This document shows, piece after piece, positions 22,126 to 43,132 of a DNA stretch of 43,132 nucleotides; the first letter of the stretch is position 1, and every line of letters starts with the position of its first letter. The stretch is from a virus: positions 1 through 43,132 of the IMG/VR virus record IMGVR_UViG_3300029616_000014; one strand, given 5' to 3'. Both the position numbers and the translations under genes were made by a program. The notes under the pieces are model-generated. The model saw only the letters and a program-made list of their open reading frames with translations, was not told the DNA's origin and made no database searches.

Positions 22126-22130
22126 TAACC

Positions 22131-22325
22131 ATGCGTTTTGACCGCATCCATCAATCGCGCATCGACGCGGCGGAGGCAGCCTACGGCCTGACGGACGACG
22201 AGCGCGAGGTGCTGAGCCTGTCCCGGCGCGGGAAATCCGTTATCGCCATCGGCATGGCGCTGGGCATGAGCACCAGAACCGTCAGCCGACGCAGAGCAGA
22301 CATCATGCGCAAGATCAACATCTGA
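22131..22325 (+). CDS. GerE/LuxR-type HTH protein (64 aa)
   Basis: ATG 22131 follows ggagga. LTDDEREVLSLSRRGKSVIAIGMALGMSTRTVSRRRADIMRKI is a textbook GerE-family HTH. Confidence 0.8.
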   Translation: MRFDRIHQSRIDAAEAAYGLTDDEREVLSLSRRGKSVIAIGMALGMSTRTVSRRRADIMRKINI

Positions 22326-22366: not shown

Positions 22367-22395
22367 TTGACAAATGGACGTAAAGATGGTATCAT
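22367..22395 (+). promoter_or_regulatory. Near-consensus sigma70/sigmaA promoter
   Basis: TTGACA (22367-22372), 17-nt spacer, TATCAT (22390-22395). Confidence 0.65.
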
Positions 22396-22396
22396 A

Positions 22397-22526
22397 ACAG
22401 CGTCGGGAGATAATCCCGCTGTCAGGAAGCAATTCCTGTGGATTGAAACGAAAACAGAAATGGAAACGATCATGATCTCATGGTCGCATCCGCAAAGAAG
22501 CCTTGCACTGCGCAGGGCTTTTTTGT
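22397..22526 (+). ncRNA. Candidate about 125-nt terminated transcript (sRNA or riboswitch-like leader)
   Basis: Two 5' hairpins: acagc..ggga-gataa-tccc..gctgt, and caggaa-GCAA-ttcctg. An A-rich stretch with repeated gaaac follows. The terminator is gccttgc-actgc-gcagggc + tttttt (22500-22524). Confidence 0.35.
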
Positions 22527-22631
22527 TGCCCAAATGGCGCGAAACTGGCGCGAATGCGGCGCGTTTTCACCCGCGTTTTGTGCGACAATCAGCACACCGG
22601 GAAACCCGGAATAACACAAGGGAGGAATATC

Positions 22632-23207
22632 ATGGACATTGAATACACTCGCAGAGGCCAAGGCAATCTGAATACTGTGCTTGGCGCAATCGGCACGGCT
22701 GGCGCCGTTGGCATTCTGAACGGCGGACTGGGCGGCCTTTTTGGCGGCGCGCGCAATGTGAACGTCAACGGCGAATGCAGCGAAAATCACCTGGTTGATC
22801 GCTATGATGCTTCTCAGCAGGCAAAAATCGCCCAGCTTGAGGCCGAAATTAAGCTGCGCGACAGCAACATCTACACCGATCAGAAGAGCCTTGCGCTGTA
22901 CCAGTACATTGACGGGCAGATCAAGGAGATTCGCGGCGAACTGTCCGATCAGCGCGTACACAACCAGCGCACCGAGGATAGCTTTGTCCTGGCGCGTCAG
23001 GATCTGGCTACCGTTAAGGCCGAGCTGGACGGCAAGATCAAGATGGAAGCCGAAAAGCGCTGCTGCGGCGATAACTCCATCGTGACATACGCAAACGCCA
23101 CCTTCTACCCCAAACAGGTTGCTGACGTGACCGTAGGCACTGCCACCACCGCGCAGAGCACCTACAATCCGCTGCCCAAGTGCGGCGATTGCTGCGGCAA
23201 CAACTGA
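22632..23207 (+). CDS. Hypothetical glycine-zipper / coiled-coil / Cys-rich-tail protein (191 aa)
   Basis: RBS agggagga. N-terminus LGAIGTAGAVGILNGGLGGLFGG, central coiled coil, C-terminus KCGDCCGNN. Hairpin terminators lie on both sides of the gene. Confidence 0.7.
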   Translation: MDIEYTRRGQGNLNTVLGAIGTAGAVGILNGGLGGLFGGARNVNVNGECSENHLVDRYDASQQAKIAQLEAEIKLRDSNIYTDQKSLALYQYIDGQIKEIRGELSDQRVHNQRTEDSFVLARQDLATVKAELDGKIKMEAEKRCCGDNSIVTYANATFYPKQVADVTVGTATTAQSTYNPLPKCGDCCGNN

Positions 23208-23214
23208 CAAAAGC

Positions 23215-23249
23215 GGGAGGGCTGGCACTGACCGGCTCTCTCCGTTTTT
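23215..23249 (+). terminator. Terminator-like hairpin after the glycine-zipper gene
   Basis: gggagggctgg-cactga-ccggctctctc (11 bp including G-U pairs), then cg + ttttt. Confidence 0.5.
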
Positions 23250-23268
23250 CTGATTGGAGGATTACGTA

Positions 23269-23616
23269 ATGGTTAGTATTGAGACCATAGAGCGCGGCCT
23301 TGCGCAGTATATCGACGCTGAATTGCTGCCTAAATTGCCGCAGGACGGCCTTAAAGGCTTTGGCGTGCGGTCAATGGCTACGGCTATTGTAATGCGCGGG
23401 GGACGGCTCCTGAGCGCCTACGCGACCTGGAAGCCTGCGCAGATCATGGGCGCTATTACGCCTGACGGCACAGTTGATATAGATTTTTTGCGCGATGTTT
23501 TCAAGGGCGGCATCCAGCAGGGCGGCCAGAAAATTGATTTGCCGCTGGGTGTGTCGCTGAGAATTACGCCTGAGGATGTAGATCACATATACAGCTACAT
23601 CATGCAGGCGCAGTAA
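23269..23616 (+). CDS. Hypothetical protein (115 aa)
   Basis: ATG 23269 lies 7 nt after ggagga. No recognisable motif. Confidence 0.6.
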   Translation: MVSIETIERGLAQYIDAELLPKLPQDGLKGFGVRSMATAIVMRGGRLLSAYATWKPAQIMGAITPDGTVDIDFLRDVFKGGIQQGGQKIDLPLGVSLRITPEDVDHIYSYIMQAQ

Positions 23617-23626
23617 GGAGGAAATC

Positions 23627-23935
23627 ATGAAAGAACTGAAAGAAGTCATCCGCGACATCGGGGAAATCCTGGACAGCGCGGAGATGTACGCCAAGGAAGC
23701 CGTCAAGCACAAGACGCAGTATCCTTCCCTGGCCGGTGTCTATTGCCGCATCGCGCAGGACGATCTGTCTCACGTCGATATGCTGCATAAGCAGGCCGTT
23801 GAGATGATTGGCGAGCAGAAGCGCTCCGGTGCGACCGTCCCCGAATCCATGCAGGCTGTGTGGGATTTTGAGCACGAGCGCCAGATCGAAGACGTGGCGG
23901 ACGTGAAGCGGCTGATCGATATGTACAAGGAGTAA
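23627..23935 (+). CDS. Hypothetical helical protein (102 aa)
   Basis: RBS aaggagga. Composition predicts an all-helical fold (possible four-helix bundle). No recognisable motif. Confidence 0.6.
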   Translation: MKELKEVIRDIGEILDSAEMYAKEAVKHKTQYPSLAGVYCRIAQDDLSHVDMLHKQAVEMIGEQKRSGATVPESMQAVWDFEHERQIEDVADVKRLIDMYKE

Positions 23936-23943
23936 AATATCAA

Positions 23944-23974
23944 CCGGAGTGCTGATATGTGCTCCGGTTTTTTG
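23944..23974 (+). terminator. Rho-independent terminator
   Basis: ccggagtgc-tgatat-gtgctccgg followed by tttttt. Confidence 0.8.
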
Positions 23975-24020
23975 TACACAATAGATTGGTGTGTACATGT
24001 ACACAATAATGTACATAATA
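23973..24020. repeat. attP arm-type repeats (TGTACA[C/T]AATA x3 plus a TGTACA half)
   Basis: tgtacacaata at 23973-23983 and 23998-24008. tgtacataata at 24010-24020. tgtaca at 23992-23997. Confidence 0.6.
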
Positions 24021-24169
24021 GCCGCACATAACCGCAAGTAACGAACAATAATTCCGCGTTTTCTCCATTTTTCCTTCTTTGCCTCGTCAGCCCAGTTTTC
24101 CCCCGTTTTAGCCCCAAAACCGCACAAAAAAGTGCGAAACCGGCTATTTTCAAGCAGATTTCGCACATT

Positions 24170-24234
24170 TGGCGGAGAAGGAGAGATTTGAACTCTCGCA
24201 CCGGTTATCCCAGTCTACTCCCTTAGCAGGGGAA
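24170..24234 (-). other. attP core: 3' portion of tRNA-Ser(GCU), from anticodon loop to CCA
   Basis: The reverse complement reads tcccctGCTaagggagtagactgggataaccggtgcgagagttcaaatctctccttctccgcca. This is anticodon loop, long variable arm, T arm, acceptor 3' strand and CCA. No matching 5' half is present, so it is not a functional tRNA. Confidence 0.8.
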
Positions 24235-27480: not shown

Positions 27481-27519
27481 GCTTAAAGTGTTGACATTAT
27501 GCTTAAAGCGTGATATTAT
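27481..27519 (+). promoter_or_regulatory. Rightward early promoter with overlapping GCTTAAAG operator boxes
   Basis: TTGACA (27491-27496), 17-nt spacer, TATTAT (27514-27519). GCTTAAAG occurs at 27481-27488 and 27501-27508, with a third copy at 27752-27759. Confidence 0.65.
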
Positions 27520-29057: not shown

Positions 29058-29185
29058 TCGTGATCATCATCGCGGCCATTGCTCTGACGGCCTTAACCGC
29101 CTCGCTTACCAGCGGCACGGGGAGCTGCACCGACCATTACAGCGCGTACTACCGCAGCATGGCGCGGTTGACGGATAAAAAGTGA
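29051..29185 (+). CDS. Hypothetical 44-aa N-terminal-TM protein
   Basis: ATGCTGA start/stop overlap with the previous ORF. Sequence begins MLIVIIIAAIALTALTASL. Confidence 0.4.
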   Translation: MLIVIIIAAIALTALTASLTSGTGSCTDHYSAYYRSMARLTDKK

Positions 29186-29210
29186 TCAAAAACAAGGAGG
29201 AAAAATAACA

Positions 29211-29843
29211 ATGTGCCAACTCAAATCCTGCCTGGTGCTCAAGGATCGCGTGTATTGCCCGGACTACGACAGCCACCAGGACATGCTGGACAAGCTGGGT
29301 ATCAAGGATGACTACCTGGGCGCCAGCAAAACCTTTGTGCGGGTGGAGCTTACGCCGCCGGACGGTATGAGATCGCTGATGGAGCAGCTGGACAGGTGGA
29401 CGCTCAAGGTGGATCAGGATGTAACGCCCGAGTGGTGGGACGAAAAGGCCGACCGGCAGCGCGTGGAAGAGGCTGTTGAAGCCTGGCGCGGGGGGCATGT
29501 TTTTACGGAGGGCGAGCACGTCGTTAAGGATGGAGAGGTTTACGCCTTCGGCAGCGCCACGGTGAAAGCCTACAACAGCGCCACGGTGAAAGCCTGGGAC
29601 AGCGCCACGGTGGAAGCCTACAACAGCGCCACGGTGAAAGCCTGGGACAGCGCCACGGTGGAAGCCTACAACCGTGCCACGGTGGAAGCCTGGGGCAGCG
29701 CCAGGGTGACAGCCTGTGGCAGCGCCAGGGTGACAGCCTACAACCGTGCCGCGGTGAAAGTCTACAACTACTCCACGGTGGTTTATCCTCGAAAAAACAA
29801 GATCGTCTATCCCGCCGGATGGACGGCGGAAACGCACGATTAA
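29211..29843 (+). CDS. Octapeptide-repeat (predicted beta-helix/solenoid) protein, 210 aa
   Basis: RBS caaggagga. The unique N-terminal domain is about 113 aa. It is followed by about 9 tandem units of SATV[K/E]A[Y/W][N/D/G]. Confidence 0.7.
   Translation: MCQLKSCLVLKDRVYCPDYDSHQDMLDKLGIKDDYLGASKTFVRVELTPPDGMRSLMEQLDRWTLKVDQDVTPEWWDEKADRQRVEEAVEAWRGGHVFTEGEHVVKDGEVYAFGSATVKAYNSATVKAWDSATVEAYNSATVKAWDSATVEAYNRATVEAWGSARVTACGSARVTAYNRAAVKVYNYSTVVYPRKNKIVYPAGWTAETHD
29553..29768. repeat. 24-bp tandem repeat x9 (in frame, inside CDS 29211-29843)
   Basis: Units start at 29553, 29577, 29601, 29625, 29649, 29673, 29697, 29721 and 29745. Consensus agcgccacggtg[a/g]aagcct[a/g][c/g][a/g]ac. Units 2 and 4 are identical to each other, as are units 3 and 5. 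Confidence 0.95.
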
Positions 29844-29948
29844 CAATAATCACAGCCGGCTGCGGCACGAAACGCCGCTGGCACACGGAAAGACGGGCGC
29901 GCGATGGGAGCGAGACACCCACGGACAGCCGGGAGAGACCGGCAGCAC

Positions 29949-34401: not shown

Positions 34402-34900
34402 TTACAGGCGCATCCGGGACGAGGTGCCCATGGAGCGGCTGTGCAGCCTGATTGGCATCCCCGTCCGGCACGGCTTTGCGGTGTGCCCGCTGCATCGCGA
34501 CAGCAACGCCTCCATGCGCGTGTACCCGGGAGACAAGGGCTTTTACTGTTTCGGCTGCCATCAGGGCGGGGACGTGATCGACTTCCTGGCGCTGATCACC
34601 AAGCAGAGCCGTTCGGACGCGGCGCGGCAGTTGGCGCAGACGTTTTGTATCCCTGCGAGCAAGGCGGCAGCGAGCCGAAGGGAATCGATTTTAAGCAGGC
34701 AAAAGGCGCGCGAAAATCGCTTGCGCATGCGGGACATAGCAAATGCCCTGGCGGAGATATACCGCGCCCAGAACGCAAATATGAGCCGCTGCGCGCCAAC
34801 CAGAGAGGACGCAGACAAACCATGGCCGGAGGCGTTTGAGACCGCGTGCAACCTGCTGCCGGTGATCGACTGCGCGCTGACCATTGCGGACGAGAGGTGA
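34394..34900 (+). CDS. Stand-alone DnaG-type CHC2 zinc-finger protein (168 aa, no TOPRIM)
   Basis: CPLHRDSNASMRVYPGDKGFYCFGCHQGGDVIDFL is the zf-CHC2 signature. The remainder is helical with no TOPRIM acidic motifs. Confidence 0.75.
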   Translation: MIDYRRIRDEVPMERLCSLIGIPVRHGFAVCPLHRDSNASMRVYPGDKGFYCFGCHQGGDVIDFLALITKQSRSDAARQLAQTFCIPASKAAASRRESILSRQKARENRLRMRDIANALAEIYRAQNANMSRCAPTREDADKPWPEAFETACNLLPVIDCALTIADER

Positions 34901-37829
34901 GAGAGATTTGGACTTGAGCAAGCTGGGCACGCCGCAGGACGTACCGCGGTTTCAGCGGGCGGACTTTGACGGCACAGCGCCCTACGACTACATATACAGA
35001 TTCGCCGCCAACGCCTTCCAGATGATGCAGGTGTACAACGTGGTGGCCGCACAGGCAAAGGAATTAGGCGTAAAAAACTTTGCAAAGATGTTTGAATCCT
35101 ATAAGCGCGTACAGCGCGGATCAGGCTACAATCTGGACATCGAGCAGGCGGCGACCAATTTCCCCGATCAGCCCATGGAGCTGCGCTGCGGGCGCTACAC
35201 CTGCGACGCGGGCGGCGTAGCCTGCGAGGACAAGGGCGGCTATCACACGCTGGTGTGCAGCCATCCGCTGATGCCCGTTAAAAGGATGGAAAACATCGAC
35301 ACGGGCGAACAAAAGGTGGAGATCGCGTTTTCACGCGGCGGCGTGTGGCGCTATAACGTGGTGGATCGCACGGTGCTGTCCAGCGCCAACAAGATCGTGG
35401 ATCTGAGCCGGTACGGCATGGACATTACCACCGAGAGCGCGCGGGATGTGGTCAAGTATTTGGCCACCATCGACGCACTGAACTACGACAAAATCGGCGA
35501 GGTGCGTTCCGTCGGCCGTCTGGGCTGGGTGGGGCACGAGCTGTTTTCGCCCTACGTCCCCGATCTGCGGTACGACGGCGATGCAGGCTATGCGGCGACG
35601 TACAAGGCGGTACACCCGCAGGGGTCGCTTACGGGCTGGCTGGAGGCCGCGCGCCATGGCCGGGAGAGCAGCGTGATCACCCGCGTGATGCTGGCCGCGG
35701 CGTTTGCAAGCGTGCTGGTGGAGCCCTGCGACGCGCTGCCCTTTGTGGTGCATGCGTGGGGAGGCACGGGGGCGGGAAAGGCGCAGCCGCTGGATACCCT
35801 GATCATTACCCCTGACGGGAGTAAACGCATGGGAGATATGCGCGTCGGCGATCTGGTCATCGGCGGAGACGGAAAGCCGCACCCCGTGACGGGCGTATAC
35901 CCGCAGGGCATGAAGAATATCTTTGAGATTACATTTGCGGACGGACGCAAGACGCGCTGCTGCAAAGAGCATTTGTGGAACGTAACGACCAGAACGCGCA
36001 GGAACTACGGTCGAGGATACAAGACCATGGAGCTGCAGGAAATGCTGACCAGAAAGTCCATCAAGACTGCAAAGGGCTATGAGTACCAGATTCCGCTTTG
36101 CAAGCCTGTCGAGTATTCTGACAGCGAAGCCCTGCCCATCGACCCTTATCTGCTGGGCGCAATGATTGGCGACGGCTGCATGACCCTGAAGCAGAACAAG
36201 GCCAACTATTCGCGGAACCTGTATTTCAACAACTCGGAGGCTGATGTGATAGTCCGCGTATCTGCTGAGCTGGAAATACACGGCTCGAAGATGAAACGGA
36301 ATCCGCATACTTCCAACCAGTTTGTCCTTACAAACGCGAAATGGCTTAAGGACGCGATTGTAAATCTCGGGCTGAATCAGAACAGCTATCACAAATTCAT
36401 TCCCGATATTTATATGAAAGCATCTCCTGCCAAGCGCAGAATGCTTCTGTGCGGCCTGATCGATACGGACGGCAACGTTGGAGAGAACGGTTCTGTGTCT
36501 TATTCTACATGCAGCGAACGCCTGGCTTACGATGTTCAGCGTCTTGCGTGGAGCCTTGGCTATAAGTCTACTGTTAGCATGTCGGTTCGCCGTGACAAGG
36601 ATGTGCCAGAATACACCGTTTGCATATCCGCCGATGAAGGCGTATTCCTATCCGAAAAGCATAGCTACAACAAGCTCCGCAGCGTCAATCGTAGGAATCG
36701 CGCTGAAGATAAAACAGCCATGTCTATCATCAGCGTAGAGCCATGCGGACAGGCAGAATGTCAGTGCATCATGGTTGATAGCGACGAGCACACCTATCTG
36801 TGCGACGATTTCATTGTAACGCACAACACCGTTGGCCTGATGCTGGCCGCTTCCGTGTGGGCGGATCCCACAGCAGGCGCGTATTACAAGACGTTTAACG
36901 CTACGGGCGTAGGCCAGGAGATGACGGCAGGCTTTCTCAATTCGCTTCCCCTTTGTCTGGACGAGCTGCAGGTGATCAAGGACAAAAAGGACTTTGACCA
37001 GACGATCTACACCCTGTGCGAGGGCGTAGGCCGGTCACGCGGCGCCAAGGCGGGCGGCCTGCAGCGCATGCAGACGTGGCGCAACGCCATCATCACCACG
37101 GGCGAGATGCCCATCACAAACGCGGACAGCGGCGGCGGCGCGGTGAACCGCGTGATCAACATGGACTGTCAGGACGAGAAGCTGTTTGCCGATCCGCGCT
37201 GGGCGGTATCCGTGATGCGCAGGAACTACGGCCACGCGGGCCGGGCGTTTGTGGAGCACCTGACGGGCGGCGCGATGGAGCGGGCGAAGGAGCTGCAAAA
37301 GGAGTACTACGCCAAGCTCACCGAGCAGGACAGCACGGAGAAGCAAGCCCTGAGCGCGTCCCTGCTGTTGGCGGCGGATACCCTTGCAACGGAGCTGCTG
37401 TTTCAGGACGATCTTGCGCTGACGGTGGAAGACCTTGCGCCCATGCTCGTGACCCGCGCGGAGGCCGACGTCAACGCCCGCTGCTACGAGTGGCTGACGG
37501 GCTTTATCGCGGTCAACAGCAACCGCTTTGATGAATCGGCGGACAACAAGGGCGAGGTGTGGGGGAGGATCGAGGGCGACACGTGCTACTTTGTGGCAAC
37601 CAAATTTGAGCAGGTAATGCGCGAGTACGGCTATTCCAGCAGCAGCTTCCTATCCTGGTGCAGCCGGGTTGGCAAGATCAAGAGGCAGGATGGGAAGAAC
37701 TACAAGAGCGTCGTGCGCATCCGCAAGAACAACACGCGCTGTCTGCTGATCTGCATGCCGCCTGATGGCTTCGTGGAAGTGGATGACGACGAAGATTTCC
37801 CTTTTGAGCAAACAAAGGTGACAATGTAG
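34884..37829 (+). CDS. SF3 replicative helicase (DUF927/D5-like), interrupted by an intein in the Walker A loop
   Basis: The extein junction reads HAWGGTGAGK|...|TVGLMLAA. Splicing would restore GTGAGKT. Downstream segment LDELQVIK is Walker B-like. The start is probably TTG 34908, after gaggtg. Confidence 0.8.
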   Translation: MRTRGERDLDLSKLGTPQDVPRFQRADFDGTAPYDYIYRFAANAFQMMQVYNVVAAQAKELGVKNFAKMFESYKRVQRGSGYNLDIEQAATNFPDQPMELRCGRYTCDAGGVACEDKGGYHTLVCSHPLMPVKRMENIDTGEQKVEIAFSRGGVWRYNVVDRTVLSSANKIVDLSRYGMDITTESARDVVKYLATIDALNYDKIGEVRSVGRLGWVGHELFSPYVPDLRYDGDAGYAATYKAVHPQGSLTGWLEAARHGRESSVITRVMLAAAFASVLVEPCDALPFVVHAWGGTGAGKAQPLDTLIITPDGSKRMGDMRVGDLVIGGDGKPHPVTGVYPQGMKNIFEITFADGRKTRCCKEHLWNVTTRTRRNYGRGYKTMELQEMLTRKSIKTAKGYEYQIPLCKPVEYSDSEALPIDPYLLGAMIGDGCMTLKQNKANYSRNLYFNNSEADVIVRVSAELEIHGSKMKRNPHTSNQFVLTNAKWLKDAIVNLGLNQNSYHKFIPDIYMKASPAKRRMLLCGLIDTDGNVGENGSVSYSTCSERLAYDVQRLAWSLGYKSTVSMSVRRDKDVPEYTVCISADEGVFLSEKHSYNKLRSVNRRNRAEDKTAMSIISVEPCGQAECQCIMVDSDEHTYLCDDFIVTHNTVGLMLAASVWADPTAGAYYKTFNATGVGQEMTAGFLNSLPLCLDELQVIKDKKDFDQTIYTLCEGVGRSRGAKAGGLQRMQTWRNAIITTGEMPITNADSGGGAVNRVINMDCQDEKLFADPRWAVSVMRRNYGHAGRAFVEHLTGGAMERAKELQKEYYAKLTEQDSTEKQALSASLLLAADTLATELLFQDDLALTVEDLAPMLVTRAEADVNARCYEWLTGFIAVNSNRFDESADNKGEVWGRIEGDTCYFVATKFEQVMREYGYSSSSFLSWCSRVGKIKRQDGKNYKSVVRIRKNNTRCLLICMPPDGFVEVDDDEDFPFEQTKVTM
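35781..36827 (+). mobile_element. 349-aa intein with LAGLIDADG homing endonuclease (Ala1, class-3-type W/C/T hallmarks)
   Basis: Block A is AQPLDTLIITPDG. Block B is CCKEHLW. Two LAGLIDADG motifs are present: LLGAMIGDGC and LLCGLIDTDGNV. Blocks F/G are CQCIMVDSDEHTYLCDDFIVTHN, followed by +1 Thr. Confidence 0.85.
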
Positions 37830-39549: not shown

Positions 39550-40017
39550 ATGACAGACAAGGTGCTGTGCCCGTACTGCGGGAGCGAAATGAAAAGCGAG
39601 GATTGGGTTAAAGTAGACGGCGGTTACCTGTCCTATGCTGTGTGCTCAAATAACGCATGCCAGAGTATCGGCCCGACTGTTACTGGCTATGAGACGATGG
39701 CCGAGGCCCGCGCCGCCGCCCTTGCCGCCGCCCAGGCGCGATACCTGCCGCCCAACAGGCCGCTGACGATGGAGGAGGTTAAGGCGCATTGCAAAGGTGG
39801 AACGAGTGCAACGCCATTGTGGGTAGAGTTTGATGAGGGCATTAACAGATGGGTTCAGATTGCTCCTGAAAAGCCGGGATGCGAATTGGATTATGTCACT
39901 GTATTTGTCAGCATAATGTCGTCGTTATATGGCAAGGAATGGCGTTGCTGGCTCCGCAAGCCCACGCAGGCGGAAATGGACGCGGCGGGATGGGGAGGAG
40001 ATGCAACCGATGACTGA
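39550..40017 (+). CDS. Zinc-ribbon protein with Lar-like (restriction alleviation) N-terminal domain
   Basis: CPYCGSEMKS...YAVCSNNACQSIGP..........EARAAALAAAQARY resembles Lar family architecture. The C-terminal 70 aa are unassigned. Confidence 0.4.
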   Translation: MTDKVLCPYCGSEMKSEDWVKVDGGYLSYAVCSNNACQSIGPTVTGYETMAEARAAALAAAQARYLPPNRPLTMEEVKAHCKGGTSATPLWVEFDEGINRWVQIAPEKPGCELDYVTVFVSIMSSLYGKEWRCWLRKPTQAEMDAAGWGGDATDD

Positions 40018-40156
40018 TACACAGCTTATTATCCCCCTGATGGAGGACGCGCTGACCGTGGCCACGCTGCTGATCAAGGCAGGCTACAGGGTGCAGATGC
40101 GCAAGAGCAAGGAGGGTACTGCCAAATACATGTATGTGCTTGAGATTGCGAGGTGA
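40010..40156 (+). CDS. Hypothetical 48-aa protein
   Basis: ATG 40010 follows ggggaggag and overlaps the previous stop codon. Confidence 0.4.
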   Translation: MTDTQLIIPLMEDALTVATLLIKAGYRVQMRKSKEGTAKYMYVLEIAR

Positions 40157-40160
40157 TCGG

Positions 40161-40673
40161 ATGGACGATAAGGCAACGGCGCGCGGGGCGCTGCAGGATG
40201 ACGCAGGAGCGATTTTTGCGCCGGACAGGGCAACTGCACAGCCCAGGCAGGACAACCCCGCCAAGCGCTATCTGCGCCGCTACGTTGGCTTGCGCAAGTA
40301 TCGGGACGCGCTGCGCGACGAGCTGCGGGAGCACTACAGCACGGCCACGGCCTGCACGGTGCGGCTTAAGCCCATCGCGGTATCTGGCGGCAAGGGCGCG
40401 TATGATCGCATGGCCGAGGATGTGTGTCAGATCGTGGATACCAAGGCCAGGCTCGAGCGGGCGATCTGCAGCCTGGATCAGCAGCTATCCGATATCCTGA
40501 CGCTGCTGGACAGCCTGAGCGATCAGCGCTACAGGGACGTGCTGGCCTACCGCTACATCCGCGGCATGACGTGGGAGCAGGTGGCGCGCGAGACAGGATA
40601 CGAGATTGCGCAGATATACAGGCTGCACGGGCGGGCGCTGATCGAGGTCAACAGGGCGCTGGACAGCCGCTAA
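40161..40673 (+). CDS. Late-gene transcriptional activator (RinA/ArpU/DUF1492-like, sigma region-4 HTH)
   Basis: N-terminal segment KRYLRRYVGLRKYRDALRDEL. C-terminal segment RYRDVLAYRYIRGMTWEQVARETGYEIAQIYRLHGRALIEV. It is the last rightward early gene before the packaging module. Confidence 0.65.
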   Translation: MDDKATARGALQDDAGAIFAPDRATAQPRQDNPAKRYLRRYVGLRKYRDALRDELREHYSTATACTVRLKPIAVSGGKGAYDRMAEDVCQIVDTKARLERAICSLDQQLSDILTLLDSLSDQRYRDVLAYRYIRGMTWEQVARETGYEIAQIYRLHGRALIEVNRALDSR

Positions 40674-40706
40674 AAAAAGAAGCCTCCGGGATTTCCGGGG
40701 GCTTTT
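40672..40706. terminator. Bidirectional rho-independent terminator
   Basis: A7, then gcctccgg-gattt-ccgggggc, then tttt. It sits between convergent genes ending at 40673 (+) and 40720 (-). Confidence 0.8.
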
Positions 40707-40719
40707 GCTGTGCGGTGGG

Positions 40720-41112
40720 TTATGCCGTGGGCAATTTGTGCCGGATGGCGTCGTACTGCGCCAGGATGGCGGCGTCATCATATTTGGCCGTGAGCCTTTG
40801 GATGGCCGGAAAGTTGCGGCGCTTGACGTCGGGGCCTACGGCGATCCACTGCCACGGGCCGCGAGACGTGGCAATGCTGCTGCCCTCCTGTGTGTGCCAG
40901 ACTGCCAGATGCAGCGCGATGTGGTACATTCCGTCTTGCTCATAGCTGCACTGCCAGGTGAGCGTGGCGGTCAGCGTGGTGCGCTCATCGAGCTGGATAT
41001 CCTTCGCGGCCCGCTTTTGCCCGCGAAAGATATAGTAGAGTTCGTCGAGGCGAAACCCGTTGTGCATCTTGGCGTTGATGGCGTTGATCTGATCGTCTGT
41101 GATGCTGTGCAT
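40720..41112 (-). CDS. Hypothetical protein (130 aa), last gene of the leftward operon
   Basis: Coding-like composition, W-rich, no motif recognised. Confidence 0.6.
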   Translation of the reverse strand: MHSITDDQINAINAKMHNGFRLDELYYIFRGQKRAAKDIQLDERTTLTATLTWQCSYEQDGMYHIALHLAVWHTQEGSSIATSRGPWQWIAVGPDVKRRNFPAIQRLTAKYDDAAILAQYDAIRHKLPTA

Positions 41113-41179
41113 TTTACAAGCCTCCTGGCCTTGTGGCCTGTTTTTGTCGCCCTCGTAACCTCCGGGGCGGCTTTTGTGA

Positions 41180-41380
41180 TCAGTAGCAGGGGTTTGCCTT
41201 GCTCAGCTCCCACTCCTCGCCGTACTTGCCGGCGTGGGCCTGCTCGTAGGCCGCGAAAAACTCCTGCTCGGTGCAGGGCGCGAGCTTGTCGTTGAGCTCC
41301 GCGCAAATGTCGTCATCCATCAGGGCGACGGCGGCGGCGTAATCAATCTCGGTGCCGTTGGCGTTGATAACCTTTGTCAT
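41180..41380 (-). CDS. Small acidic hypothetical protein (66 aa)
   Basis: Sequence begins MTKVINANGTEIDYAAAVALMDDDICAELNDKLAPCTEQEFFAAYEQAH. I recall similar small proteins on Firmicute mobile elements, but no function is known to me. Confidence 0.6.
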   Translation of the reverse strand: MTKVINANGTEIDYAAAVALMDDDICAELNDKLAPCTEQEFFAAYEQAHAGKYGEEWELSKANPCY

Positions 41381-41412
41381 ATTTTTGCCCTCCTTATTCT
41401 TTGTCCTCTGTG

Positions 41413-41577
41413 TCAGTTTTCCTTGCCCTGGTTGCGCTCTGCATCCTGCGCAATCAGCATGCGGATATAGGCAGATCGGCTCATGCCGTAAGCTGCTGCG
41501 CGCTTGTCCAGGTAATCCGATAGCTCGCGCGTCAGGATTACGCCGGTGCGCTCCTTGTCTCCGTCCTTTCTTAGCAT
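41413..41577 (-). CDS. Ribbon-helix-helix (CopG/Arc-type) DNA-binding protein, 54 aa
   Basis: RBS ggaggg. TGVILTRELSDYLDKRAAAYGMSRSAYIRMLI shows the beta-strand-helix-helix pattern. Below the ORF-track cutoff. Confidence 0.65.
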   Translation of the reverse strand: MLRKDGDKERTGVILTRELSDYLDKRAAAYGMSRSAYIRMLIAQDAERNQGKEN

Positions 41578-41612
41578 GCCGGCCCTCCTTGCTTGATGGT
41601 TTTTTTCATCGT

Positions 41613-42113
41613 TTATTCCGTTCCTTTCTTTTGGGCTTTTTTCATTTCGGCAATTTTTGCCATAATTTCTTCGGCTGGCACATCATCGTCATAATTTCCG
41701 GCAGCCTCGCGCTCGCTGATGATCATATCCTGCGCCAGGCCGTAGCTATCATCGTCTCCCTCATCATCCAGAGTGCTTACAACGCAAGATATGATGCCGC
41801 TAATACAAGCCTCGGTATCGCCGTCATCGGCATATTGATATATTATATCCGTAATATCATACGCGCCCCTGTCAATAACAGAGCGGCGGAAATCGTGCAG
41901 CTCCAGGCCATACGCATCATTGCCGATGCTGACGATGATAGATGAGCTACGGAGGAGATACCATTGGCGAGCTTTGAGGCGCGCCATATCGCAATCAGTT
42001 GGATCATAGGCAATCGTAACACTTTCCAGCGATTTTTCCAGGGCGTCGCGCGACGGGATATCGCACACATACTCACCGCTGTAATTGTGATAATACGCAT
42101 TATCTTTAATCAA
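41613..42113 (-). CDS. Strongly acidic hypothetical protein (166 aa), DNA-mimic candidate
   Basis: Hand count gives 35 D/E against 16 K/R. Asp clusters are present (DDGD, LDDEGDDD, YDDD), with a short basic C-terminal tail. Confidence 0.6.
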   Translation of the reverse strand: MIKDNAYYHNYSGEYVCDIPSRDALEKSLESVTIAYDPTDCDMARLKARQWYLLRSSSIIVSIGNDAYGLELHDFRRSVIDRGAYDITDIIYQYADDGDTEACISGIISCVVSTLDDEGDDDSYGLAQDMIISEREAAGNYDDDVPAEEIMAKIAEMKKAQKKGTE

Positions 42114-42131
42114 TTTTCTGCCGCCTCCATC

Positions 42132-42311
42132 TTACTTTTTGTCGATGATCTGGACGGTTTCCCAGCCATCCAGCGCGGCCGTGGTGTCCAGGTACTCGAG
42201 CGGCAACCGACGGATTTCGCTGTGGTCGCAGCAGTCTGCGCAGATGTAACGATATTTGCGGGTATCAACGATCAGTTCGCGCATTACCTTTTCAACAAAT
42301 TCCTTTTTCAT
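42132..42311 (-). CDS. Hypothetical 59-aa protein, first gene of the leftward operon
   Basis: ATG 42311 follows caaggagg. The longer ORF-track start at 42371 lies inside the promoter. Contains CADCCDH. Confidence 0.55.
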   Translation of the reverse strand: MKKEFVEKVMRELIVDTRKYRYICADCCDHSEIRRLPLEYLDTTAALDGWETVQIIDKK

Positions 42312-42361
42312 TTTGCTTGCCTCCTTGTTCTTTGCTGTCGGTTTCCCTTGAGCACGTCTGC

Positions 42362-42390
42362 ATTGTATCACGGTTGTGCCACTCTGTCAA
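42362..42390 (-). promoter_or_regulatory. Near-consensus leftward promoter with upstream A/T tract
   Basis: On the minus strand: TTGACA (42390-42385), 17-nt spacer, TACAAT (42367-42362). An UP-like A/T run lies at 42400-42420. Confidence 0.7.
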
Positions 42391-42461
42391 CACCTTTTTG
42401 CAAATTTTTTTAATTTTTTTTCGCCTCCGCAAAAGATGATAGCAAATGATAGTATCGACTG

Positions 42462-42470
42462 TGCTATAAT
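42462..42470 (+). promoter_or_regulatory. Possible extended -10 promoter (TGcTATAAT)
   Basis: tgctataat at 42462-42470 with no good -35. A hairpin plus T-run follows at about 42482-42518. Confidence 0.3.
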
Positions 42471-42638
42471 AGTAGTGTCAAGAGATCGGGACAGCAATGT
42501 TTCTGGTCTCTTTTTCTTTTAGGAGATAATATAGAGTATCATCCTCCGTATTCTGTATTATTTCCTATTAAAATGTAGTTTAATCAAAACGAATGGAAAT
42601 AAGTGTATTGTTAAGTCTCGTTTGTGTGAGGTGATGTA

Positions 42639-42782
42639 ATGCTCGCTGCTCTTGTGCGTGATCCCCTCCCGGGGTGGGCTGCGCTGGTTGTCGGTTGGGC
42701 GCAGACGAGGCAGCGAGGACGGCCAACAGGGCAAGGCGACGCGCTGACCGGGCAACGTGCCCCGCTGATGGTGGCGCTCTGA
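42639..42782 (+). CDS. Possible 47-aa ORF occupying a GC-rich island inside AT-rich DNA
   Basis: RBS gaggtg lies 6 nt upstream. Sequence MLAALVRDPLPGWAALVVGWAQTRQRGRPTGQGDALTGQRAPLMVAL. The island borders coincide with the ORF borders. Confidence 0.3.
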   Translation: MLAALVRDPLPGWAALVVGWAQTRQRGRPTGQGDALTGQRAPLMVAL

Positions 42783-42808
42783 TGGGCGCTGATCGGTGTA
42801 TATGCATG

Positions 42809-42956
42809 CTGTATAGTGTATGATGATACATTGTATACAGTATGGATATTCAATTGTTACATTTAACTACCTTTAACGGATACAGATATAGTATAATATA
42901 TCTATTTGTATCCGTTATCGATAACTATTCGCAAAACATCTCTTTCGCGAATAGTT
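42809..42956. repeat. Cluster of inverted repeats/palindromes in AT-rich DNA upstream of the terminal G/C-run region
   Basis: ctgtata (42809) pairs with tatacag (42840). aacggataca (42875) pairs with tgtatccgtt (42916). ttatcgataa lies at 42914-42923. aactattcgc (42923) pairs with gcgaatagtt (42956). Confidence 0.8.
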
Positions 42957-43040
42957 TGGAAATGCAAAAACAAGGCTGGAGCGGCCGCCGCGCTGACCAG
43001 CTGCGCAGCGGAAAAAAGGCCGAGCAGCCCGAAGACCCCA

Positions 43041-43132
43041 CCCCGCCCCCTGGGGGTATAGGGGGGGGATGCGATACCCGGGGGGCCGAATCGGGCCCGG
43101 GTCTCCGCCGCCGCGCCGCGACTAAACTAATA
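43041..43132. repeat. Right copy of the 92-bp direct terminal repeat
   Basis: Identical to 1-92. Confidence 0.95.

What the first reader, a model, noticed from the sequence alone, without database searches (positions are those of the whole stretch)
40720..42390. Leftward five-gene operon (acidic proteins + RHH regulator) from a consensus promoter: candidate anti-defence or prophage-expressed accessory system
This is the only multi-gene block on the minus strand outside the lysogeny module. It is wedged between the late activator (40161-40673) and the packaging genes. The promoter is TTGACA-17-TACAAT (42390-42362) with an A/T tract upstream. Five tightly packed ORFs follow: 59 aa (CADCCDH), 166 aa, a 54-aa ribbon-helix-helix protein, 66 aa and 130 aa. 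The operon ends at a bidirectional terminator (40672-40706). The 166-aa product is extremely acidic (35 D/E against 16 K/R by hand count, with Asp clusters), and the 66-aa product is also acidic. Acidic DNA-mimic proteins such as Ocr and ArdA, and anti-CRISPR operons carrying a small HTH or RHH autoregulator, share this layout. None of the five proteins has a motif I can place in a known family. The autonomous promoter could equally mean expression from the prophage, i.e. a defence or exclusion function.
Basis: partly seen in the sequence, partly recalled or inferred. Interest (0 to 1): 0.7.

Follow-up and report, generated by a model that had tools for sequence, protein, structure and literature searches.

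The report
Phage anti-CRISPR operon with RHH regulator
This five-gene leftward block of a temperate gut-Clostridia phage is an anti-defence operon: it carries a clear homologue of the known anti-CRISPR AcrIC5, a small ribbon-helix-helix regulator and three uncharacterised passenger genes, so it is a new example of a known kind and a source of candidate new inhibitors.

Summary
Five tightly packed minus-strand ORFs (59, 166, 54, 66 and 130 aa) run from a near-consensus promoter (42362-42390) to a bidirectional terminator (40672-40706).

The 66-aa acidic protein belongs to Pfam AcrIC5 (82.9 bits against a cut-off of 27). It is 45% identical to the solved Pseudomonas AcrIC5, a validated type I-C anti-CRISPR that blocks target-DNA binding.

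The 54-aa protein looks like a CopG/Arc-type RHH and sits in the position of an anti-CRISPR-associated (Aca) regulator.

Related phages keep the same promoter and the g1+RHH head but swap the cargo: AcrIC5, the 130-aa family, a 75-aa acidic protein, or the anti-restriction protein ArdC. In other relatives an HTH replaces the RHH, or the RHH is fused in frame to AcrIC5. This is the usual pattern of an acr/anti-defence locus.

The 166-aa acidic protein (net charge -19) has no homologue anywhere except its own sequence. It is inserted between g1 and the RHH and has atypical codon GC. A DNA-mimic role is untested.

Elsewhere the phage carries a promoter-driven small RNA with a type I-C repeat-like hairpin and handle (22421-22449), a candidate RNA anti-CRISPR.

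Verdict: a new member of a known kind, of moderate interest.

The parts
42362..42390 (-). Sigma-70-type promoter TTGACA-17-TACAAT with an extended -10 (TG). The inferred transcription start is near 42355.
   Evidence: 11 of 12 matches; one of only 3 such sites in 43 kb, against 0.09 expected; the -35 and -10 are conserved in L001, L004, L006, L081-L083 and L086, while the spacer varies in L004 and L006.
42391..42425 (-). A/T-rich tract upstream of the -35, possibly an UP element.
   Evidence: Sequence. Conserved as an A-tract in all related promoters. Function is inferred.
42312..42355 (-). 5' UTR with the conserved motif AACCGACAGCAAA (42330-42343) and the RBS AAGGAGG. This region and the promoter spacer are the candidate operator region for the RHH protein.
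   Evidence: the blocks ACCGTGATAcAAT, AGACGTGCTCAA and AACCGACAGCAAA are conserved across 8 loci. No local inverted repeat with an exact seed of 6 bp or more was found. The RNA fold is not significant (z -0.25).
42132..42311 (-). g1: 59-aa protein of unknown function, the conserved first gene of the operon. Candidate anti-defence or accessory protein.
   Evidence: 91-100% identical copies lie directly upstream of the RHH gene in L081-L086. The exact sequence occurs on 255 contigs. Homologues at 51-55% identity occur in PolB-encoding low-GC viral contigs, where the Cys motif is not conserved. No family or PDB hit.
41613..42113 (-). g2: 166-aa, strongly acidic orphan protein (net charge -19, pI 4.25), inserted between g1 and the RHH gene. 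Candidate anti-defence cargo; a DNA-mimic role is untested.
   Evidence: Charge. No homologue other than itself in the 5.8-billion-cluster search or the exhaustive HMMER search of 1.84 billion representatives. The only other hit there is a 5,975-aa repeat protein, which I judge spurious. No relative in viral contigs. GC3 is 0.51 against 0.72-0.87 for neighbouring genes. Absent from sibling loci, where g1 abuts the RHH gene. The AF2 model is unusable (pLDDT 42).
41413..41577 (-). g3: 54-aa ribbon-helix-helix (CopG/Arc/MetJ-type) DNA-binding protein. Inferred Aca-like repressor of the operon promoter.
   Evidence: RHH_1 scores 18.6 bits, below the cut-off of 20.5. Weak hits to NikA, HicB, FitA, VapB, BrnA, RelB and MazE models and to Arc/CopG PHROGs all point the same way. 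The G-M-S-R-S turn motif is visible in the sequence. JGI names it a CopG/Arc/MetJ regulator. It is linked to AcrIC5, ArdC and g5 cargo in different loci.
41180..41380 (-). g4: 66-aa acidic AcrIC5-family protein, a type I-C anti-CRISPR homologue.
   Evidence: Pfam PF22147 AcrIC5: E 1.7e-23, 82.9 bits against a cut-off of 27, covering model positions 1-53 of 53. PDB 7yhr AcrIC5: E 6.7e-9, 25 of 56 aligned positions identical. Net charge -9. 53 related viral loci.
41113..41179 (-). g4-g5 intergenic junction with the hairpin element GCCGCCCCGGAGGTTACGAGGGCGAC and a conserved leader before g5 (ACAGGCCACAAGGCCAGGAGG).
   Evidence: in L081 the same element occurs twice, flanking a 75-aa gene. The window holds one hybrid copy, which fits cassette gain or loss by recombination. 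The fold is modest (z -1.6).
40720..41112 (-). g5: 130-aa protein of a small uncharacterised family that travels with AcrIC5. Candidate anti-defence cargo. The window copy lacks 12 internal residues found in most family members.
   Evidence: 26 homologues, all unannotated. Alignment A1 shows the 12-aa deletion. The family lies next to AcrIC5 in L001, L004, L007, L081 and L085. AF2 gives pLDDT 64. No fold match in PDB or BFVD: best E-values 0.029 and 0.024, TM-score at most 0.41.
40672..40706 (.). Bidirectional intrinsic terminator shared with the convergent sigma-like gene (40161-40673, + strand).
   Evidence: Sequence. The minus-strand RNA hairpin folds at -19.9 kcal/mol and is followed by U7.
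22367..22526 (+). Separate locus, not part of the operon but probably aimed at the same target. A promoter-driven, terminator-bounded small RNA carries a type I-C CRISPR-repeat-like hairpin plus handle (CAGGAAGCAATTCCTG-TGGATTGAAAC, 22423-22449). Candidate RNA anti-CRISPR (Racr-like solitary repeat unit).
   Evidence: Exact GTGGATTGAAAC at 22438-22449. Sequence. Promoter TTGACA-17-TATCAT. RNA fold z -4.85. Weak hit to Rfam CRISPR-DR9: 18.4 bits, E 0.12. The transcribed part is 100% identical in two sibling phages while the promoter spacer has diverged. No matching array or protospacer was found.

Best explanation
This is an anti-defence (acr-aca type) operon of a temperate phage of gut Clostridia.

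**Proposed sequence of events**
1. Host RNA polymerase fires the strong sigma-70 promoter at 42362-42390 as soon as the DNA enters the cell. Basal firing in lysogens is also possible. This timing is inferred.
2. A single mRNA covers g1-g2-g3-g4-g5 and stops at the terminator at 40672-40706.
3. g4, an AcrIC5-family protein, binds the host type I-C Cascade and stops it from engaging target DNA. Published work on the family predicts binding at the PAM-recognition site of Cas8c. This step is inferred from family membership.
4. g3, a small RHH dimer, binds within or next to the promoter and shuts the operon down after the first burst, as Aca proteins do. This step is inferred from position and association.
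5. g1, g2 and g5 are exchangeable cargo that probably counter other host defences. Their targets are unknown.

**What is shown**
- The gene set, the promoter and the terminator.
- g4's membership of the AcrIC5 family.
- g3's repeated linkage to different anti-defence genes.
- The modular exchange of cargo between related phages.
For: **g4 is an AcrIC5-family protein.**
- Pfam AcrIC5 scores 82.9 bits against a cut-off of 27 over the full model.
- It matches the solved AcrIC5 (7yhr) at E 6.7e-9 with 45% identity.
- It is small and acidic, like AcrIC5.

**Published knowledge of AcrIC5.**
- It inhibits type I-C systems of P. aeruginosa and Eggerthella lenta, blocks CRISPRi, and has orthologues in Firmicutes (PMC7913775).
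- A Bifidobacterium prophage homologue was validated experimentally (PMC10651486).
- It is predicted to occlude the Cas8c PAM site (bioRxiv 10.1101/2025.06.06.658234).

**Locus variants in related phages.**
- g1-RHH-AcrIC5-75aa-g5 (L081).
- g1-RHH-AcrIC5-ArdC (L082).
- g1-RHH-ArdC (L086).
- g1-RHH-AcrIC5-g5 (L085).
- RHH fused to AcrIC5, then g5 (L001, L004).
- ArdC-HTH-AcrIC5 (L005).
- g5-HTH-AcrIC5 (L007).

**Promoter.** It is conserved across two different phage backbones even where the first gene differs. It is one of only three near-consensus promoters in the genome.

**Precedent for the regulator.** An RHH Aca has been shown experimentally (Aca14, PMC13551039).

**Lifestyle.** The phage is temperate, with an integrase and HTH repressors.

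**Independent sign of a type I-C host.** A conserved small RNA elsewhere in the phage carries a type I-C repeat-like hairpin and handle.
Against: - No experiment: activity of this homologue against any type I-C system is untested.
- The host and its CRISPR type are not identified. Only MAG titles are available (uncultured Clostridiales, Ruminococcaceae).
- g3 scores below Pfam's RHH_1 cut-off (18.6 against 20.5).
- No clear inverted-repeat operator was found in the promoter.
- g1, g2 and g5 have no homology or fold match to any known anti-defence protein. Their roles rest only on their neighbours.
Confidence: 0.8

Rival explanations
1. It is a toxin-antitoxin or other prophage-expressed defence or exclusion module. 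g3 would be an RHH antitoxin and a neighbouring gene the toxin or effector, protecting the lysogen against other phages.
For: The best NCBIfam and Pfam hits for g3 are antitoxin RHH models (VapB 26 bits, BrnA, RelB, MazE, HicB-like, FitA). The phage is temperate. The operon has its own host-type promoter.
Against: All those hits are far below the curated cut-offs of 50-65 bits. The gene after g3 is an AcrIC5-family protein, not a toxin. In L086 the gene after the RHH is ArdC. No PADLOC model hits any of the five proteins. No PIN, RelE, ParE or MazF-like partner is present.
Confidence: 0.05
2. It is an Arc/Mnt-like immunity (immI-type) regulatory cassette. The RHH protein would control lysis-lysogeny or antirepressor expression, and the AcrIC5-like gene would be a passenger with no role in this host.
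For: g3 gives weak PHROG hits to Arc-like and CopG-like repressors. The phage has a P22-type portal. A strong promoter repressed by a small RHH protein resembles P22 Pant/Arc (my knowledge of P22 immI).
Against: No antirepressor-like gene is present. The RHH-linked cargo across loci consists of known anti-defence proteins, AcrIC5 and ArdC. The same cassette sits in an unrelated SPP1-portal phage backbone.
Confidence: 0.05
3. Only the g3-g4 pair is functional as an aca-acr pair. g1, g2 and g5 would be neutral morons or decaying or spurious ORFs with no anti-defence role.
For: g2 has no homologue anywhere and an atypical GC3. g5 in the window carries a 12-aa internal deletion. No fold or family hits for any of the three.
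Against: The exact g1 sequence occurs on 255 contigs and keeps its place at the head of the operon. The g5 family has 47 invariant columns and is found in two phage backbones and in 76-104 kb elements. g2 has a good RBS, lies in an operon and shows a GC1 > GC3 > GC2 coding pattern. ArdC occupies the same slot as g5 in siblings.
Confidence: 0.2

Closest known systems
AcrIC5 (type I-C anti-CRISPR; Pfam PF22147; PDB 7yhr; Leon et al. 2021, PMC7913775)
   Same: g4 matches the full Pfam model well above the cut-off and is 45% identical to the solved protein. It has the same size class (66 aa against 60) and the same strong acidity. It is encoded on a phage next to a small DNA-binding regulator.
   Different: It comes from a gut-Clostridia temperate phage rather than Pseudomonas. 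It has a short C-terminal extension (LSKANPCY). It is paired with an RHH protein rather than Aca1 (HTH). In some relatives it is fused in frame to the RHH. Its activity is untested.
acr-aca operons regulated by Aca repressors, including the RHH-type Aca14 (PMC13551039)
   Same: A strong promoter drives a small operon that holds a known acr gene, a small DNA-binding protein and variable unannotated cargo. The same regulator is linked to different anti-defence genes in different elements. The regulator is RHH rather than HTH, as in Aca14.
   Different: g3 is a minimal 54-aa RHH, whereas Aca14 is described with a long helical extension. Aca14 has a conserved inverted repeat over the -10; none was evident here. 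The regulator gene lies upstream of the acr gene rather than last in the operon.
acrIC5-racrIC1 locus of a Bifidobacterium pseudocatenulatum prophage (PMC10651486)
   Same: A prophage carries both an AcrIC5 homologue and a solitary type I-C repeat-like RNA, so protein and RNA inhibitors would aim at the same system.
   Different: There the Racr lies 11 nt downstream of acrIC5 on the same transcript. Here the repeat-like RNA is about 19 kb away with its own promoter and terminator. Its anti-CRISPR activity is only conjecture.
Acidic DNA-mimic anti-restriction proteins (Ocr, ArdA)
   Same: g2 is strongly acidic, with Asp/Glu clusters, and sits in an anti-defence operon expressed from an early-type promoter.
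   Different: g2 has no sequence similarity to Ocr, ArdA or any other protein. No reliable structure model exists to examine its charge pattern.
P22 immI Arc/Pant circuit
   Same: A very strong promoter feeds a gene set whose over-expression is presumably harmful, and a small RHH protein encoded in the same transcript holds it in check.
   Different: The cargo is anti-defence proteins, not an antirepressor. No Mnt-like divergent partner was identified.

Membership tests
AcrIC5 family (Pfam PF22147) | Sequence match to the family model above the curated gathering score, over the whole domain | tested here: met
   82.9 bits against a cut-off of 27, E 1.7e-23, model positions 1-53 of 53 aligned to residues 5-57.
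AcrIC5 family (Pfam PF22147) | Significant similarity to the experimentally characterised and solved AcrIC5 | tested here: met
   7yhr_A at E 6.7e-9, 25 of 56 aligned positions identical.
AcrIC5 family (Pfam PF22147) | Small, strongly acidic protein | tested here: met
   66 aa, 13 D/E against 4 K/R, pI 4.1.
AcrIC5 family (Pfam PF22147) | Inhibits type I-C CRISPR-Cas interference by blocking DNA binding | not testable with these tools
   Needs plaque or CRISPRi assays. The only indirect hint that the host has type I-C is the repeat-like RNA at 22421-22449.
Aca (anti-CRISPR-associated) regulators | Small DNA-binding protein encoded in the same operon as a known acr gene | tested here: met
   g3 lies 32 nt upstream of g4 in one transcription unit. 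RHH assignment rests.
Aca (anti-CRISPR-associated) regulators | The same regulator family recurs with different acr or anti-defence genes | tested here: met
   g3 homologues (81-94% identity) occur with AcrIC5+g5, AcrIC5+ArdC, and ArdC alone. In siblings an HTH replaces the RHH in the same slot.
Aca (anti-CRISPR-associated) regulators | Binds repeats in the acr promoter and represses it | tested here: inconclusive
   Conserved blocks overlap the -10 and the 5' UTR, but no local inverted repeat with an exact seed of 6 bp or more was found. Binding itself needs EMSA or a reporter assay.
Aca14 (RHH Aca, PMC13551039) | Sequence homology to Pasteurella multocida WP_005725436.1 | not tested
   The Aca14 sequence is not held here; the paper has no supplementary text available.
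RHH_1 / CopG (Pfam PF01402) | Score above the gathering threshold | tested here: inconclusive
   18.6 bits against 20.5, covering 38 of 39 model positions. More than ten independent RHH models give convergent weak hits. A source names it CopG/Arc/MetJ.
DNA-mimic anti-restriction proteins (Ocr, ArdA), for g2 | Homology to, or a DNA-like charge array on, a defined fold | tested here: not met
   No Pfam, PHROG, NCBIfam, PADLOC or PDB hit. The AF2 model has pLDDT 42 and is unusable. Only the bulk acidity is met.
Type II toxin-antitoxin module | RHH antitoxin paired with a recognisable toxin | tested here: not met
   No toxin family hits any of the five proteins. Antitoxin model scores are far below their cut-offs.
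Known anti-phage defence systems (PADLOC) | Any component matching a defence-system model | tested here: not met
   no families for any of the five proteins at E up to 1.

The most novel reading that the evidence does not exclude
The operon is a multi-target counter-defence cassette run by a new RHH-type Aca family. At least one of g1, g2 and g5 would be a new inhibitor family. g2 would be a de novo or very fast-evolving acidic DNA mimic, and g5 a recurrent partner of AcrIC5. A 1-nt indel would switch the regulator and AcrIC5 between separate proteins and a self-regulating fusion. The phage would back this up with a separately transcribed RNA anti-CRISPR against the same type I-C system.
Probability: 0.35. 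Interest if true: 0.65.

Novelty: new member of a known kind. Interest (0 to 1): 0.5.

Why it matters
Almost no anti-CRISPR or anti-defence genes have been characterised for phages of gut Clostridia, where type I-C systems are common (my own knowledge).

- **A usable anchor.** The locus gives a confident anchor (an AcrIC5 homologue plus an RHH regulator) for discovery by association.
- **Three candidate families.** g1 is widespread, g5 recurs with AcrIC5, and g2 is an acidic orphan. They occupy slots that ArdC fills in sibling phages.
- **A second RHH regulator lineage.** If g3 is confirmed, it would show that Aca-type control reaches beyond HTH proteins in Firmicutes phages.
- **Natural experiments.** The fused and unfused RHH/AcrIC5 variants allow a direct comparison of self-regulating Acr designs.
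- **Protein and RNA together.** The separate type I-C repeat-like RNA would make this phage a model for combined protein and RNA anti-CRISPR strategies.

Tried and rejected
**g2**
- Exhaustive homology searches found only itself.
- The 5,975-aa hit P0028 is a tandem-repeat protein, and I judged the match spurious.
- The single-sequence AF2 model was too poor to search with.
- Relaxed tblastn against all fetched loci gave nothing.

**g5**
- The AF2 model was moderate (pLDDT 64).
- Foldseek against PDB and BFVD gave no hit better than E 0.02, with TM-scores at most 0.41. The AfAgo-N and RAD52 rows are noise.

**g1**
- No family or PDB hit.
- The CxxCC motif is not conserved in distant homologues, so a zinc-binding reading was dropped.

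**Operator search**
- No convincing palindrome lies in the promoter.
- The 20-nt, 75% inverted repeat flanking the promoter (42332-42351 / 42478-42497) has its upstream arm in backbone DNA that L001, L004 and L085 lack. I do not rely on it.

**RNA families**
- Rfam found nothing credible in 40000-43132.

**Host and relatives**
- The phages collection holds only short hits to uncultured human-gut phage records.
- Only MAG titles were obtained for the host.

**Type I-C repeat-like RNA**
- The mini-CRISPR-array reading was tested. The 17-mer finds no arrays in viral or metagenome contigs.
- The putative 34-nt spacer has no protospacer in viral contigs. The solitary-repeat (Racr-like) reading is therefore preferred.

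**Strand assignment at 22470-24201**
- It could not be resolved.
Full report
**1. Observation**

The five minus-strand ORFs exist as described:
- g1: 42132-42311, 59 aa.
- g2: 41613-42113, 166 aa, TTG start 8 nt after GGAGG.
- g3: 41413-41577, 54 aa.
- g4: 41180-41380, 66 aa.
- g5: 40720-41112, 130 aa.

Independent gene calls on a near-identical 43,111-bp metagenomic contig list the same five products. They lie between a sigma-like gene and the small-terminase, terminase and P22-type portal genes.

The promoter TTGACA-17-TACAAT (42390-42362), with TG before the -10, is the best promoter-like site in the region. Only three sites in the whole window match TTGACA-N17-TATAAT with at most one mismatch, against 0.09 expected. 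The other two are the early promoter beside the HTH repressor (27491) and the promoter of a small RNA (22367).

The terminator at 40672-40706 is a 10-bp hairpin flanked by A7 and T4. On the minus strand it folds at -19.9 kcal/mol and is followed by U7.

g4 has net charge -9 and pI 4.1.

**2. What the proteins are**

*g4.* It is a full-length member of Pfam PF22147 AcrIC5 (E 1.7e-23, 82.9 bits against a cut-off of 27). It matches the solved Pseudomonas AcrIC5 (7yhr) at E 6.7e-9, with 25 of 56 aligned positions identical.

Published work on AcrIC5 says the following:
- It is a validated type I-C anti-CRISPR that blocks CRISPRi, meaning it prevents target-DNA binding.
- It also inhibits the Eggerthella lenta type I-C system.
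- It has orthologues in Firmicutes and Actinobacteria (PMC7913775).
- A Bifidobacterium prophage homologue was validated experimentally (PMC10651486).
- It is highly acidic and is predicted to occlude the PAM-binding site of Cas8c (bioRxiv 10.1101/2025.06.06.658234; PMC10478522).

*g3.* It gives convergent but sub-threshold hits to RHH models. These include RHH_1 at 18.6 bits against 20.5, NikA, HicB-like, FitA, VapB, BrnA, RelB, MazE and the Arc/CopG PHROGs. It carries the typical G-x-S-R-S turn. JGI names it a CopG/Arc/MetJ regulator.

*g1, g2 and g5.* None hits Pfam, PHROGs, NCBIfam, PADLOC or PDB sequences.
- g2 is an orphan. Only its own sequence turns up in the 5.8-billion-cluster search and the exhaustive 1.84-billion-representative HMMER search. 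The one extra hit is a tandem-repeat giant protein, which I discount. Its single-sequence AF2 model is unusable (pLDDT 42).
- g5 belongs to a small family of 26 clusters, mostly 142-145 aa. The window copy lacks 12 internal residues. Its AF2 model (pLDDT 64) matches nothing in PDB or BFVD.
- g1 has homologues at 51-55% identity among the small genes of PolB-encoding low-GC phages. The Cys motif is not conserved there.

**3. Comparative anatomy**

This is the decisive evidence. AcrIC5-like genes occur in at least 53 viral contigs with very different neighbours.

Close relatives of this phage have a sigma-like gene 95-98% identical to the window's. Together with an unrelated SPP1-portal phage, they show these arrangements in the same slot:

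| Locus | Gene order |
|---|---|
| window | g1 - g2 - RHH - AcrIC5 - g5 |
| L081 | g1 - RHH - AcrIC5 - 75-aa acidic protein - g5 |
| L082 | g1 - RHH - AcrIC5 - ArdC |
| L086 | g1 - RHH - ArdC (no AcrIC5) |
| L085 | g1 - RHH - AcrIC5 - g5 - FtsK-like |
| L001, L004 | RHH fused in frame to AcrIC5 - g5 - FtsK-like |
| L005 | ArdC - HTH - AcrIC5 |
| L007 | g5 - HTH - AcrIC5 |
| L006 | another 59-aa protein - another RHH-like protein - AcrIC5 |

The ArdC assignment rests on ArdcN at 96.7 bits and MPTase-PolyVal at 120.6 bits.

Three conclusions follow:
- A small DNA-binding protein, RHH or HTH, always accompanies the cargo.
- The cargo includes two independently known anti-defence proteins, AcrIC5 and ArdC.
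- g5 and ArdC alternate in the same position.

g2 is present only in the window lineage, wedged between g1 and the RHH gene. In all siblings those two genes are about 12 nt apart. g2's GC3 is 0.51, against 0.72-0.87 for the phage's other genes. This points to a recent foreign insertion.

Window and L001 share an identical -35, spacer, -10 and 5' UTR although their first genes differ (g1 against RHH).

Cassette junctions carry a repeated hairpin element, CCGGAGGTYACGAGGGC. In L081 it flanks the 75-aa gene on both sides. The window has one hybrid copy, which suggests gain or loss by recombination.

**4. Mechanism**

*Shown:*
- One transcription unit with a near-consensus host-type promoter and an intrinsic terminator.
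- An AcrIC5-family gene.
- An RHH-like gene linked to varied anti-defence cargo.

*Inferred:*
- Immediate-early transcription.
- g4 binds type I-C Cascade and blocks DNA recognition.
- g3 dimers repress the promoter after the initial burst. This is the logic established for Aca1 and Aca2 (my own knowledge) and shown for the RHH-type Aca14 (PMC13551039).
- g1, g2 and g5 inhibit other defences.

I could not identify an operator. The promoter region has conserved blocks (ACCGTGATAcAAT, AGACGTGCTCAA, AACCGACAGCAAA) but no clear palindrome.

The phage is temperate, with a tyrosine integrase and HTH repressors. The Acr could therefore also protect the prophage from self-targeting.

**5. Independent hint at the target**

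An exact GTGGATTGAAAC lies at 22438-22449. From my own knowledge, this is the conserved 3' end of type I-C repeats and the crRNA 5' handle.

It directly follows a 6-bp hairpin (CAGGAA-GCAA-TTCCTG). It sits in a 130-nt unit bounded by a TTGACA-17-TATCAT promoter and a strong terminator.

Further properties of this RNA:
- It is highly structured (z -4.85).
- It gives a weak hit to Rfam CRISPR-DR9.
- Its transcribed part is 100% identical in two sibling phages whose promoter spacers have diverged.
- No arrays share the sequence.
- The would-be spacer has no protospacer in viral contigs.

I therefore read it as a solitary repeat unit, like RacrIC1, which accompanies an AcrIC5 homologue in Bifidobacterium (PMC10651486). 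This is a lead, not a demonstration.

**6. Rivals**

- *Toxin-antitoxin or defence module.* The antitoxin-model scores are far below their cut-offs, no toxin is present, and PADLOC is silent.
- *Arc/Mnt-type immunity cassette.* There is no antirepressor, and the cargo is anti-defence.
- *Only g3-g4 are functional.* This remains possible, at about 0.2. However, g1 and g5 are conserved and mobile, and ArdC fills g5's slot in siblings.

**7. Comparison and novelty**

This is an acr-aca type operon, which is a known kind. g4 is a member of a known family. g3 is probably a further RHH-type Aca lineage; its relation to Aca14 was not tested.

The new elements are:
- Three uncharacterised cargo families.
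- A fused/split RHH-AcrIC5 polymorphism. The 132-aa fusion is seen on at least 15 contigs and corresponds to NCBI DAG61430.1.
- The cassette-junction repeats.
- The unlinked type I-C repeat-like RNA.

Interest is moderate at 0.5. The locus will not surprise a specialist, but it is a well-anchored source of candidate anti-defence genes for gut Clostridia phages.

Noticed in passing
window 22367-22526 (+): A small RNA gene bounded by a promoter (TTGACA-17-TATCAT) and a terminator. It carries a type I-C CRISPR-repeat-like hairpin followed by the exact handle TGGATTGAAAC (22423-22449). It is highly structured (z -4.85) and 100% conserved in two sibling phages whose promoter spacers differ. No matching arrays or protospacers were found. 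Candidate Racr-like RNA anti-CRISPR; a degenerate mini-array is less likely.
   Followed up: partly
L001 9455-9853; L004 3803-4201; proteins P0059, P0060, P0062: In related phages the RHH gene and the AcrIC5 gene form one 132-aa in-frame fusion, with the RBS region translated as the linker. The difference from the window is a 1-nt indel. The fusion is seen on at least 15 contigs (NCBI DAG61430.1). It may be a natural self-regulating Acr.
   Followed up: partly
window 41113-41179; L081 3900-3960 and 4190-4260: A hairpin element, CCGGAGGTYACGAGGGC, recurs at cassette boundaries. In L081 it flanks a 75-aa acidic gene on both sides, and the window has a single hybrid copy. This fits cargo gain or loss by recombination between intergenic repeats. 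A longer conserved leader of about 130 nt precedes g5 or ArdC in L001, L005, L007, L082 and L086.
   Followed up: partly
window 40720-41112 (g5), alignment A1 columns 61-72: The window copy of g5 lacks 12 residues (KTTSYHDTINMQ-like) that most family members have. Only one other cluster shares the deletion.
   Followed up: no
window 22367-22395, 27491-27519, 42362-42390: Only three near-consensus sigma-70 promoters exist in the 43-kb genome, against 0.09 expected by chance. They drive the repeat-like small RNA, the early region beside the HTH repressor, and the anti-CRISPR operon.
   Followed up: partly
window 42332-42351 and 42478-42497: A 20-nt inverted repeat, 75% complementary, brackets the operon promoter. 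The upstream arm lies in backbone DNA that is absent from the SPP1-type phages carrying the same operon. Its significance is unclear.
   Followed up: partly
window 34884-37829 (+): The DUF927/HTH_56 primase-helicase-like gene appears to contain an intein. The equivalent gene of the near-identical contig L003 has LAGLIDADG_3 and Hom_end hits.
   Followed up: no
window 29552-29780: A 24-nt tandem repeat of 9.5 copies, about 80% matching, lies inside an ORF at about 29106-29846. It would encode an 8-residue protein repeat.
   Followed up: no
window 13774-22125 (+): A single 2,783-aa ORF occupies a fifth of the genome. It is followed by a small GerE/LuxR-type HTH gene (22044-22325) just before the repeat-like RNA.
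   Followed up: no
L068 and L069 (76-104 kb viral contigs), around 2600-3500: Distant g5 homologues (45% identity) sit in runs of small acidic ORFs in large elements. One of these ORFs is an 84-aa protein related to the 75-aa acidic gene that precedes g5 in L081, so the 75-aa/g5 pair is conserved across very different elements.
   Followed up: partly
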